From Iphione sp. A-MEVVRFRX5 (taxonomy: Eukaryota): a stretch of DNA of 64,000 nucleotides. Location: assembly GCA_976226885.1 (NCBI GenBank), contig OZ320315.1:92752001-92816000 (forward strand). Direction: 5' to 3'. Below the pieces are notes generated by a model. It worked only from the letters and a program-made list of their open reading frames with translations. It ran no database searches and was not told the DNA's origin. Within the stretch, counting starts at the first letter, position 1. Each line of letters starts with the position of its first letter. Shown one piece after another: positions 44,250-47,541 of the stretch. The position numbers were made by a program, and so were the translations under genes.

Positions 44250-44486
44250 ATGGCGGAAAAACAAGTGAAAGAAATGTGGGAATGGGTACGACGAAAAGAA
44301 GCATCAAAGAAACAAGCAGAGATGAAACAAAGAAAAAAGAAGAAATTCGACAAAGCTACAAAAAGTATGAGAAAATTAGAGCAACTGAAACAGAGAAATG
44401 TTAGAAGAGAAGAAAGGAAACGTAAGAAGGAGAAAAGAGAAGCAAAGAAACGTCAAAAAGCTGTGGCAAACTTCACAAGACAAGAA
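44250..44486 (+). CDS. polB: pPolB predicted exon 1 (79 aa, basic coiled-coil MAEKQVKEMWEW…FTRQE)
   Basis: ATG at 44250; GAA|GTAAGT donor, phase 0. Confidence 0.7.
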
Positions 44487-44604
44487 GTAAGTGGAATTAG
44501 ATATTTTAAAAATTTGTGATTTTTTTTTTTTTTTTTAAGAACCCTGTCACAAAGAACGAAAGTACCATCTGTTTTTTGTTTTTTTCTTCTTGTACCTATT
44601 ATAG

Positions 44605-44775
44605 AGAGAAATACTCGCTGAATTCTTAGTCGAATTTGAAAATCTCGGAAGTAGTAACAGCACTGAAAATGAAAATGAAGAAACCAATGAAGATGGTCGC
44701 GTGGTTATGGAGATTGATGACAACGAAGATCAAGAAGATAGAAGTCTACCTGAAGTAGGAATGGAGATAGAGGAA
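44605..44775 (+). CDS. polB: pPolB predicted exon 2 (57 aa, acidic REILAEFLVEF…GMEIEE)
   Basis: T-rich tract + TATAG acceptor; open frame; GAA|GTAAGA donor; phase 0/0. Confidence 0.7.
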
Positions 44776-45081
44776 GTAAGACACTTATTGAAAAAAACAC
44801 AAATATGTTTTTTTTGATTATAGATCAAATTTTTTTATTTGACACATTCCGCTTGCTACAAAAGTAATCATGCAACAATAATAGTCCATTGTGGATATTA
44901 CGAATATGATCAATGTATTAAATATAAGATTAATTAGGATAAAGTGAATGTAATAGAATTAATATGATAATATATAGAAGTTACTCAATAAATGGATTGT
45001 ATATAGTGTATCAATTGCATGTTGTTAAAAAAAAGTCATTAGATAAAGGGATTGTATATACTGATTGTATTTAAAACACAG

Positions 45082-45339
45082 CAAAGAGGAGCAGGAATAG
45101 AAATTCCACCATTAGCTACGACTCAATCACCGGTACGCATATCACCACCACCACCACCACCACCACCACCACCAACACCCAACAGGAGTGGGAGTAATAA
45201 TAGTAGCAGCAGTAGCAGTAGACGAGGAGGGACAGCAGCAGTAGCAGCCGCAGCAGCCACAGCAGCAGCAGGAAGACAGTCTTCATATCATCCACAGCCC
45301 AGCACATCGTCAGCGTCATCATCATGGCATGGCAGACAG
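45082..45339 (+). CDS. polB: pPolB predicted exon 3 (86 aa, QRGAG…poly-P/S/A…WHGRQ)
   Basis: CTGAT branch-like site + ACACAG acceptor; CAG|GTTACA donor (weak); phase 0/0. Confidence 0.55.
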
Positions 45340-45445
45340 GTTACACTTCCTATGTAATAAAAAAAAATTCAGCAAATTCAATTATAGTGATATATGATCA
45401 TGTTTATACCCAAATAATACAATACATCATTTTTCCCTTTCCCAG

Positions 45446-45544
45446 ATGAACGACGACGACGACGACGATGACAATGATGAAAGCGAAGACAATATGTCAT
45501 CACCAAGACCATGCTCGAGTAGACAGATGACCAATTCGAATGCA
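45446..45544 (+). CDS. polB: pPolB predicted exon 4 (33 aa, MNDDDD…TNSNA)
   Basis: TTTTTCCCTTTCCCAG acceptor; GCA|GTATGT donor; phase 0/0. Confidence 0.65.
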
Positions 45545-45557
45545 GTATGTGTTTTCT

Positions 45558-45593
<36 letters not shown>

Positions 45594-45731
45594 TTTTTTT
45601 TTTCTTTTTTAAAATTATGATGATAGTAAAACAAAAGTAACATGACAATTTGTTTATATATACATAAAAAATTATATCAGTGTTAATATTGACATATAAT
45701 TTTATTTTTTTTTCCCCCTACCCCACCTCAG

Positions 45732-47541
45732 CCCACTACAGACCACCACCACCACCACCACCACCACCACCACCACCACCACCACCAACAACAACAACAA
45801 CTCCACCACACATGTCCATACTGTAAAAGAACATTTAAATACAGAGGAAATGCGCAGAAGCATGCAGCAGGCTGTAAAGAAAAGATGCGCTTGAGATGTG
45901 AAGTATGTCAGCGGAGGTTCCAGACAGTAGAACAGAAGGATGCTCATATGAAAAGATTTCACAAGAGAAAGATACACTCGTTCAAATGCAGAAAATGTAA
46001 TATGGTATGTAACACCAAAGAAGAATTGTATCTGCATGACGGTGAACAACATGGAGGAAGCGAAGAAGAATTACAACGTCCTCCATGGGTAGAAGGAGAC
46101 GAACCATGGACAAGGTTAAGGCTCAGAAACAGAACAGAAGTGGACAGGGCGAGAGAATTAGAACGAGTGTATAATGCAAACAGGCGTCACATATTAGCCC
46201 AACACAGAGAAGGAGAAATATCGGCGACATATAATTTCCCGACAGATAATCTCGCAGAGGGGGGTGTTGAATTCGAGAGACAGATGGAGGAAGTGTTTAG
46301 ACATGAACAGAGAGCGTTCAAGGTAAACATTGGATTCGGGATAATGTTGCGACACGTAGAGACGAACAAGTACAGATATTTCGTGCCTTATGGAAACAGC
46401 AGTGTATTACCCGAACCTGTACTCATCTCGAAGTGGGAGGACATAGATGATGTGGTGGCCACCTTGAAAAATACAGACCCGGAAAAGTTTTTCACACAAG
46501 ACCGACCTGATACAAAATGGGTGTCAGAAGGTGTTACGAATGTGACATACTTTGTGTGGCGAACCTCATACCCACTAGGTGGTGGCGGTGGATTCCTACC
46601 GAGGTTTCTAAAGGGAAGGCCATACCTCACCTTGTTGGACCAACATGCAGATGGGAGCGAGGTGACAGATGAACTGTGTGCCTTCAGGTGCTTGGCGATG
46701 CACAAAGGAGAGAAGGAAGAAAAGCTTGTCGACTATTACGAACAATGGCGATCATTCATAGCAAGAAAGCATGGTCGGACACTACGGAGTAATGCAGCAG
46801 AATATGAAGGGGTCGAGTTTGATCAGTTATGTGACTTTGAAGAGTGCTTCGATGTGAGTATATACGTATATGAATTAACGAAGGACAATACCGTAATCAT
46901 ACAATATAAACCATTCCACAAGTGTCCAACTACAATGCACCTAAATGTCTATAGAGGTCACCTGTCCTTTGTCAATGATTTTGAACGGTATGCTCAAAAA
47001 TTCGAATGTGTAATGTGTAGAAAATGCTTCACCCGCCGCTTCAATGTACTGCGCCACATGAAGGCATGCCCTATGAGAACAGTATATTCATTCAAAGGAG
47101 GTTACTACTCGAATCCACAAACAGTGTTTGAAGAACTAGAAACAGTAGGCATAAATGTTCCTCAACAAGACAGGCTATACAAAGATTTTGCTGTCTTCGA
47201 TTGTGAGGCTATGCTGAGAGCGATGCCTGAAGGCGAGTGTGCCAAACTGAAATGGGTGCGTAAACACGAGGTTATATCTATCGCAGTGTGCAGCAACATC
47301 CCTGGTTTTCAGAACCCGGAATGTTTCGTGTCTGAAGATATAGAAGAGTTGGTAGATGAGACCGTGACTTACTTGGAAAGCATTCAAGAAGCTGCCGTTG
47401 TTAGAGCAAAGCAAAAATGGAATACAGTGCTAGCAGACTTGGACAGATTGATAGAGCAACAGCAGCAGCAGTGCATGGAAGCAGACGGTGAGTGTATGGA
47501 CGGCGACGGCGGCGACGACGACGACGAGGACGACGACGATG

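What the first reader, a model, noticed from the sequence alone, without database searches (positions are those of the whole stretch)
44250..45884. Five-exon spliced polB: four phase-0 introns add a roughly 300-aa N-terminal region and an extra zinc finger
Seen: four AT/poly-T-rich GT-AG introns (44487-44604, 44776-45081, 45340-45445, 45545-45731) join four short open exons (basic coiled-coil, acidic, QRGAG+P/S/A, poly-D) to the main exon, all in phase 0. A TATA box lies about 90 nt upstream. The predicted protein is about 1913 aa rather than the 1607 aa of the ORF track, and gains the finger CPYCKRTFKYRGNAQKHAAGC ahead of two more. Inference: an intron-containing, Pol II-type 'early' gene on a virus-like element. 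The added basic/acidic region may form part of the terminal-protein precursor, and QRGAG could be a protease site. Exon 4 begins with ATG, which would allow an alternative start.
Basis: partly seen in the sequence, partly recalled or inferred. Interest (0 to 1): 0.7.

Follow-up and report, generated by a model that had tools for sequence, protein, structure and literature searches.

The report
Spliced leader on Polinton DNA polymerase
A virus-like jumping element in an animal genome very likely needs the host's splicing machinery to add a 255-amino-acid front end to its DNA polymerase, although such genes are described as intron-free, and that front end carries a conserved site that the element's own protease would likely cut; no spliced RNA has been seen yet.

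Summary
The four GT-AG introns and four open exons lie at the stated coordinates, all in phase 0, and sum to 1,913 aa. The gene is the polymerase of a 22-kb Polinton/Maverick. In 20 diverged copies from the same genome, a frame-blind parse found 82 of 93 exons to be multiples of three and stop-free, with the last acceptor in frame in 20 of 20. Exon 1 is under purifying selection. No RNA run was available, so splicing is inferred. Corrections: the terminal-protein fold lies in exon 5, not in the added exons; the 'extra' finger is the clade's normal first finger; the exon-4 ATG is not conserved; several subfamilies have three introns. The QRGAG idea gains support: [Q/N]xGxG starts exon 3 in 19 of 21 copies, in three of them only across the splice junction, and fits adenovirus- and mavirus-type protease sites. 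Likely mechanism: the leader is the removable front part of a terminal-protein precursor. Papers read call Maverick core genes intronless. This scan already reported spliced Polinton polymerase leaders in three findings on other genomes.

The parts
43277..43370 (.). Left terminus and terminal inverted repeat of the Polinton (begins AGTAGT); 6-bp target duplication GGTGGG outside it; the right end lies about 1.2 kb beyond the window end
   Evidence: 94-nt inverted match at 91% in L072, same 6 bp on both flanks; the 19 copies share the terminus and differ outside it
44156..44164 (+). TATA box, 94 nt before the ATG
   Evidence: kept in 19 of 19 subfamily-A copies; strict TATA in 10 of 21 diverged copies, about 4 expected, at -37 to -150
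44250..44486 (+). Exon 1: 79 aa, 33 Lys/Arg, predicted single long helix
   Evidence: pLDDT 94.8; pN 0.33 vs pS 0.79 between 14 representatives
44487..44604 (+). Intron 1, GTAAGT..TAG, phase 0
44605..44775 (+). Exon 2: conserved LAEF motif, then acidic tract (21 of 57 Asp/Glu)
44776..45081 (+). Intron 2, GTAAGA..CAG, phase 0
45082..45339 (+). Exon 3: starts with QRGAG (candidate protease site), Pro/Ser/Thr-rich linker with a PSTS motif
45340..45445 (+). Intron 3, weak donor GTTACA, phase 0; holds a conserved DNA motif at 45342-45352 and an AATAAA at 45356
   Evidence: homologous donor GTTAGA in L036/L037
45446..45544 (+). Exon 4: 33 aa, poly-Asp; variable, no separate counterpart in several subfamilies
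45545..45731 (+). Intron 4, GTATGT..CAG, phase 0; acceptor before the first finger conserved in position and phase
   Evidence: 20 of 20 in frame
45732..50708 (+). Exon 5: three zinc fingers, QHGG, terminal-protein fold, OTU protease fold, finger, family-B polymerase, C-terminal NADAR domain
45813..45875 (+). First zinc finger (Cys-Cys-His-Cys), upstream of the ORF-track ATG
   Evidence: (19 of 20 copies)
46047..46058 (+). QHGG, second candidate protease site, between the fingers and the terminal-protein fold
   Evidence: QHGG or QHGA in 22 of 22 sequences; similar motifs in P0001-P0005
46215..46574 (+). Terminal-protein-type domain (Y-family polymerase little-finger-like fold)
   Evidence: Z 6.6, rmsd 3.0, 101 aligned to Pol eta, several Y-family rows on the same residues; domain order as
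46590..46988 (+). Viral OTU-type protease domain with Cys (in ELCAF) and His (in GHL) present
   Evidence: Z 9.6, rmsd 3.9, 126 aligned to OTUD1; C290 and H384 invariant in A1
55710..56207 (+). Element-encoded adenain-type cysteine protease, the proposed cutter
   Evidence: E 5e-4 to a viral cysteine protease, His and Cys aligned; Peptidase_C5, E 0.063, below cut-off

Best explanation
This is the DNA polymerase gene of a Polinton, whose pre-mRNA is very likely spliced by the host to give a predicted 1,913-aa polyprotein, and whose added leader likely serves as the removable front part of the terminal-protein precursor. Shown in sequence: exon-intron layout, phase, its conservation, and the domain order in exon 5. 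Inferred step 1 (about 0.9): host Pol II transcribes from the TATA promoter near the left end and the spliceosome removes three or four phase-0 introns; without this the first finger has no start codon in the window and in 11 of 19 diverged copies. Inferred step 2 (about 0.7, from the published model): the OTU domain cuts behind the terminal-protein domain, so leader, fingers and terminal protein (about 535 aa) stay on the DNA end as a precursor. Inferred step 3 (about 0.5): the element's adenain-type protease trims that precursor at QRGA|G and QHGG|S, as adenovirus trims pTP through an intermediate to TP. Inferred step 4 (about 0.3): the basic helix provides nuclear targeting or DNA contact, and the PSTS motifs bind the host SPOP ligase adaptor and set turnover.
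For:: frame-blind parse of 20 other copies gave 61/77, 74/86, 82/93 and 82/93 exons that are 3n and stop-free at four intron penalties (chance at most one in three); last acceptor in frame 20 of 20; donor 1 reads GTAAGT in 13, GTGAGT in 4, GTAAAG in 3 of 20; exon 1 pN<pS in 91 of 91 pairs; 47 of 47 exon indels but 12 of 120 intron indels are 3n among 18 sister copies. QxGxG directly after AG in 16 of 21; in L042, L038 and L040 the Gln or Asn comes from the end of exon 2; adenovirus protease accepts Gln or Asn at P4 and cuts pTP at QRGF|G; mavirus protease cuts GG|X and GY|G; terminal-protein and OTU folds in the published order. PSTS 12 times in 9 of 14 representatives, shuffle mean 0.29; three elements from other organisms also have an acceptor and no Met before the first finger.
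Against: No RNA or protein evidence. Donor 3 is weak and its position shifts between subfamilies. Complete phase-0 chains were recovered in only 9 to 12 of 20 copies per setting; the misses are skipped or added introns, alternative site choices and three damaged copies. Within subfamily A, exons 1-4 show little selection signal (9 synonymous, 24 non-synonymous, 1 stop) compared with 9 and 5 in the exon-5 control. The indel contrast is confounded: exon repeats are triplets, intron repeats are single-base runs. Three copies with a long exon-5 frame carry a lesion in the leader (L006 stop in exon 3; L049 frameshift in exon 2; L042 apparent frameshift in exon 3). L039/L041 lack the QxGxG motif, and L021 reads QTGAE. 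The His of QHGG is also a zinc ligand. Exon 1 has no detected relative outside this genome. The PSTS and QxGxG patterns were chosen after seeing the sequences.
Confidence: 0.7

Rival explanations
1. Two genes: exons 1-3 form a separate small gene that reads through the weak donor 3 to a stop and is polyadenylated at 45356, while polB starts at the exon-4 ATG or further down.
For: Donor 3 scores low; AATAAA overlaps the read-through stop and is kept in 18 of 19 subfamily-A copies; exon 4 starts with ATG in subfamilies A and B; a conserved DNA motif sits at the exon-3 donor in 18 of 20 copies and could be regulatory.
Against: Read-through peptides after donor 3 are not conserved (3-87 aa) and A[AT]TAAA follows in only 5 of 14 other copies; exon 4 has no ATG start in the other subfamilies and is missing in several, where a strong donor joins exon 3 to the last exon; no conserved Met precedes or lies in the first finger. 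It may still be a minor isoform in this subfamily.
Confidence: 0.1
2. Splicing is real, but the leader is an uncleaved disordered appendage (nuclear import, degron, scaffold), and QxGxG reflects the exon's start sequence or a binding motif rather than a protease site.
For: The motif sits at the acceptor, where nucleotide preferences act; CAG|CA is a common context (own knowledge); two copies lack it; Gln at P4 is a less efficient site in adenovirus.
Against: The two glycines at +3 and +5 use varied codons and the x positions vary; in three copies the P4 residue is supplied by the previous exon; xGxG also recurs in the small basic protein of the element in the window and all 11 loci with that ORF listed (one search shows VGSG, VGRG, IGKG and the like; one locus listed no such ORF).
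Confidence: 0.17
3. The leader is not coding: polB starts at 45885 and the upstream GT-AG pattern is chance in low-complexity DNA.
For: The exons are low-complexity and have no database match; no RNA evidence exists.
Against: Protein-level conservation and pN<pS in exon 1; conserved junctions and phase; the Met at 45885 is present at that place in only 7 of 22 sequences (first Met at 26 in 5, and behind an earlier Met in others; absent in subfamily B and L036/L037) and the finger upstream of it is conserved.
Confidence: 0.03

Closest known systems
Polinton/Maverick (proposed adintovirus) pPolB with terminal protein-vOTU-exonuclease-palm order (10.1101/2024.03.18.585575; passages and section 6 read)
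   Same: Terminal-protein-type fold followed by an OTU fold with Cys and His, then the polymerase.
   Different: The passages read describe no spliced leader. Here a 255-aa leader on three or four exons, three zinc fingers and a C-terminal NADAR domain are added.
Vertebrate and nematode Mavericks (PMC8097293, passages; 10.1101/2022.07.12.499685, passages)
   Same: Inverted termini, 6-bp duplication, polymerase, integrase, ATPase, protease, capsid.
   Different: Both state that core genes are intronless; in nematodes only cargo genes carry introns. Here a core gene does, and the introns are shared by many subfamilies.
Adenovirus preterminal protein and its processing (PMC4246237, passages)
   Same: A precursor longer than the mature terminal protein, cut in two steps; a QRGF|G site is used in one adenovirus. 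Adenovirus pTP and polymerase messages are spliced (own knowledge).
   Different: Adenovirus pTP is a separate gene with helical extensions. The leader here is on the polymerase polyprotein, shows no detected sequence likeness to pTP, and cleavage is untested.
Introner insertions in dinoflagellate Maverick-Polinton-like elements (PMC11957031, passages)
   Same: Spliceosomal introns inside Polinton-like elements.
   Different: Those are mostly recent transposon-made insertions after integration. These introns are old, positionally conserved, sequence-divergent and separate coding modules.

Membership tests
Polinton/Maverick | Terminal inverted repeats with AGT-type ends | tested here: met
   AGTAGT...ACTACT, 94-nt match at 91%; element about 22.0 kb
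Polinton/Maverick | 6-bp target-site duplication | tested here: met
   GGTGGG on both flanks
Polinton/Maverick | Protein-primed family-B polymerase with terminal-protein and OTU domains | tested here: met
   OTU Z 9.6; little-finger-like fold Z 6.6, a middling score; adintovirus and mavirus polymerases; PF03175 E 3.4e-5, just below cut-off
Polinton/Maverick | Retroviral-type integrase | tested here: met
   rve E 5e-9, with chromodomain
Polinton/Maverick | Packaging ATPase | tested here: inconclusive
   Pox_A32 E 4e-4, below the curated cut-off; Walker A motif visible
Polinton/Maverick | Adenain-type cysteine protease | tested here: met
   E 5e-4 with His and Cys aligned; Peptidase_C5 E 0.063
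Polinton/Maverick | [quoted passage not shown] | tested here: inconclusive
   score 0.97 to a cluster with PF21738 on 30% of members; no Pfam hit; not folded
Polinton/Maverick | Intronless core genes (a described trait of vertebrate and nematode elements, not a formal criterion) | tested here: not met
Terminal-protein domain (for the added exons) | Four-stranded sheet with two helices, directly before the OTU domain | tested here: not met
   Exon 1 is predicted as one helix; exons 2-4 are low-complexity; the fold lies in exon 5
Adenain substrate | P4 (M/L/I, or Q/N) x G x | G or x G G | x | tested here: met
   Sequence fit only:
Adenain substrate | Actual cleavage by the element protease | not testable with these tools
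   needs an assay
Spliced gene | Junction-spanning RNA | not testable with these tools
   one search listed no RNA holder

The most novel reading that the evidence does not exclude
A clade of invertebrate Polintons has built an adenovirus-like preterminal protein by splicing: phase-0 cassette exons put a basic helix, an acidic tract and host-ligase degrons in front of the polymerase polyprotein, and two conserved protease sites let the element's protease trim the DNA-linked precursor in two steps. Polymerase gene models of such elements in databases are then systematically truncated, and splicing would be a host-controlled switch on their replication.
Probability: 0.35. Interest if true: 0.72.

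Novelty: new variant of a known kind. Interest (0 to 1): 0.52.

Why it matters
Maverick core genes are described as intronless, so ORF-based annotation cuts off the first 300 residues of this polymerase. Conserved spliceosomal introns mean the element is transcribed in the nucleus by host machinery and is open to control by splicing. The conserved sites give the first concrete candidate substrates on the polymerase for the Polinton protease that I could find in the papers read, and make the maturation of the genome-linked protein testable with peptides.

Tried and rejected
RNA: no RNA holder was listed, so no reads were laid. Viral contigs: 158 pattern matches, none confirmed. Exon-1 profile: 0 hits in 1.84 billion representatives, best E 0.32 in 16 metagenome loci, Atlas best 0.76; short basic helices are hard queries, so this is not evidence of novelty. 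Pfam found nothing in exons 1-4. A tblastn step inside one search printed nothing and was not used. Sequence search of the polymerase against solved structures gave only low-complexity hits. Exon-4 ATG as an alternative start: rejected as general. A conserved poly(A) site in intron 3: not found outside subfamily A. The inverted copy of the donor-3 motif beside the TATA box: found in 2 of 21 promoters only. Kapitonov and Jurka 2006 was not held and is cited only through PMC8097293. Ten literature searches and term look-ups in PMC8502044, PMC10748475, PMC12220804, 10.64898/2026.10.13.758929 and 10.64898/2026.07.28.741278 showed no report of a spliced animal Polinton polymerase; Repbase entries, subscription papers and supplements were not seen and may hold such annotation.

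Full report
Observation. The coordinates are right. From the ATG at 44250, exons of 237, 171, 258 and 99 nt and a last exon of 4,977 nt are each a multiple of three and open, for 1,913 aa. The introns are 74-81% AT, begin GTAAGT, GTAAGA, GTTACA and GTATGT, and end in YAG. A TATA box lies 94 nt upstream. The two N runs of the window (8155-8333, 16694-16836) are far from the finding.

Setting. The gene is the first gene of a Polinton/Maverick of about 22.0 kb, from 43277 to about 1.2 kb past the window end, with inverted AGTAGT termini and a GGTGGG duplication. It also encodes an integrase with chromodomain and a likely packaging ATPase, an adenain-type protease and a likely capsid protein. The genome holds 19 near-identical copies of the region including this one (40 of 278 candidates scored) and at least 148 polymerase copies at 70-100% identity (148 of 1,051 scored).

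Sister copies. In 18 of 18 sister copies all donor hexamers and acceptors are unchanged and all exon lengths stay 3n; three copies carry one stop each, in exon 3, in the start of exon 5 and further into exon 5. Indels are 3n in 47 of 47 exon cases and 12 of 120 intron cases, but exon repeats are triplets and intron repeats single-base runs, and the events are not independent. Substitutions in exons 1-4 look close to neutral (9 synonymous, 24 non-synonymous, 1 stop), unlike the exon-5 control (9, 5, 1). One leader lesion in 19 copies matches the rate in exon 5, where 6 of 19 copies have a shortened or interrupted frame.

Diverged copies. I took 15 of the 21 subfamily-B matches (one read, one parsed) and 20 of the 148 polymerase copies, chosen by eye to span identity groups and mostly with long open frames. 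They fall into about 14 subfamilies, so counts are not independent. Nineteen of 20 keep the first finger, each preceded by an AG and AT-rich DNA; 11 of the 19 have no in-frame Met before it. L045 is disrupted there and was dropped. Exon 1 is recognisable in the other 20 sequences, and its donor reads GTAAGT, GTGAGT or GTAAAG in all (the GT itself was part of the anchor pattern, the next four letters were not). A parser that knows nothing of reading frame (splice weights from recalled animal consensus; composition trained on the window, so the window's own recovery is circular) gave 61/77, 74/86, 82/93 and 82/93 exons that are 3n and stop-free at four penalties, and 9, 12, 10 and 10 complete chains of 20; at penalty -4 the first donor and the last acceptor were in phase 0 in 20 of 20. 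Chance is at most one in three per exon. Between 14 representatives exon 1 has pN 0.33 against pS 0.79 (uncorrected; 91 of 91 pairs). L039, L041, L044, L046, L048, L050, L052, L053 and L054 appear to have three introns, with exon 3 joined to the last exon, still in phase 0. Exon 4 begins with ATG only in subfamilies A and B.

What the parts are. A model of residues from 45810 (pLDDT 76) matches OTU proteases at 46590-46988 (Z 9.6) and Y-family polymerase little-finger domains at 46215-46574 (Z 6.6). This is the terminal protein-vOTU order described in 10.1101/2024.03.18.585575, which proposes that vOTU cuts between the two. The terminal-protein domain is thus wholly in exon 5. The first finger is the clade's usual one: P0001 starts with Met directly before it and P0002 has it after a 44-aa unspliced extension. 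Exon 1 is predicted as one 77-residue helix with 33 basic residues; exon 2 has a conserved LAEF motif and an acidic tract; exons 3-4 are Pro/Ser/Thr-rich with PSTS 12 times in 9 of 14 representatives (shuffle mean 0.29, 0 of 2,000 shuffles; pattern chosen after inspection), which fits the SPOP-binding consensus quoted in PMC7618200 (passages).

The QRGAG motif. QxGxG follows the intron-2 acceptor directly in 16 of 21 sequences. In L042 the Gln, and in L038 and L040 an Asn, is the last residue of exon 2, so the motif forms only on splicing; L039 and L041 lack it and L021 reads QTGAE. Adenovirus protease accepts Gln or Asn at P4 and cuts one pTP at QRGF|G (PMC4246237, passages); mavirus protease cuts GG|X and GY|G (PMC6048507, passages). 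A second motif, QHGG or QHGA, lies between the fingers and the terminal-protein fold in 22 of 22 sequences, though its His is also a zinc ligand. Cleavage is inferred, not shown.

Other organisms. Sixteen metagenome loci encode relatives; 13 were inspected for the frame start and 5 read. L057, L061 and L063 have a pyrimidine-rich acceptor 3-17 codons before the first finger with no Met between; L057 has a 516-nt and L063 a 72-nt upstream GT-AG-bounded exon, both open in phase 0. L058, L059 and L066 have a Met in the open frame and need no splicing. None matches exon 1. So spliced fronts are patchy in the clade and their sequences differ.

Mechanism. Shown: layout, phase, conservation, domain order. 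Inferred: host splicing yields the polyprotein (about 0.9); vOTU frees the polymerase and leaves leader, fingers and terminal protein on the DNA end (about 0.7); the element protease trims this precursor at two sites, like pTP to iTP to TP in adenovirus (about 0.5); the basic helix and PSTS motifs handle nuclear targeting and turnover (about 0.3). Uniform phase 0 lets exons be gained, lost or skipped without a frameshift, which fits the three- and four-intron forms. The main rivals are a separate three-exon gene (0.1) and an uncleaved leader (0.17).

Novelty. PMC8097293 says no introns were observed in genes of intact vertebrate elements, and 10.1101/2022.07.12.499685 calls the nematode core genes intronless. 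My ten searches found no spliced animal Polinton polymerase, but Repbase and the 2006 founding paper were not seen. This scan has three earlier findings of spliced Polinton polymerase leaders in other genomes, two with phase-1 introns; they are unchecked notes, and none matched this sequence. The element is an ordinary Polinton; the spliced leader with conserved candidate cleavage sites is a new variant. Interest 0.52.

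Noticed in passing
window 45342-45352 and homologous places in L022, L036-L055: An 11-nt DNA motif (TACACTTCCTA in the window) lies within -30 to +35 of the exon-3 donor in 18 of 20 copies and once in 23,655 nt elsewhere in the leaders (defined after inspection). It is exonic in some subfamilies, intronic in others and out of frame in two, so it acts at nucleotide level. 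It recalls ETS and T-box sites (from memory). Unexplained.
   Followed up: partly
window about 50298-50700: The polymerase ends in a NADAR domain (E 2e-11), also in P0001, P0002 and P0005. One search for NADAR with polinton listed two papers, not read.
   Followed up: partly
window 51933-53549: The small MRKL-starting protein and the integrase are one open frame here, but are listed as separate ORFs in all 11 other loci, so the fusion may be incidental or the join may be spliced or shifted.
   Followed up: no
window 53958-54311: Small basic protein with a conserved [YF][VI]GxG motif near residue 23 in the window and 10 of 11 other loci: a likely core protein and protease substrate.
   Followed up: no
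window 50708-56293: After the polymerase stop the first AATAAA on the + strand is at 56293, behind the protease, so polymerase to protease may share one 3' end.
   Followed up: no
window 56621-58905 and 59083-62115: Divergent pair of membrane-protein genes; the right-hand one has an acceptor just before its ATG and intron-like AT-rich gaps toward a long Ser/Pro-rich frame. Earlier notes of this scan describe the same cassette in other copies.
   Followed up: no
L076 (G000:C1:13094100-13100800): The ATPase-to-integrase block appears twice in tandem in this copy.
   Followed up: no
L035 (G000:C13:4845400-4851400): Two polymerase copies of different subfamilies lie about 5 kb apart on opposite strands.
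   Followed up: no
window 43396-43743: A direct repeat of about 175 nt at 94% identity inside the left end of the element.
   Followed up: no
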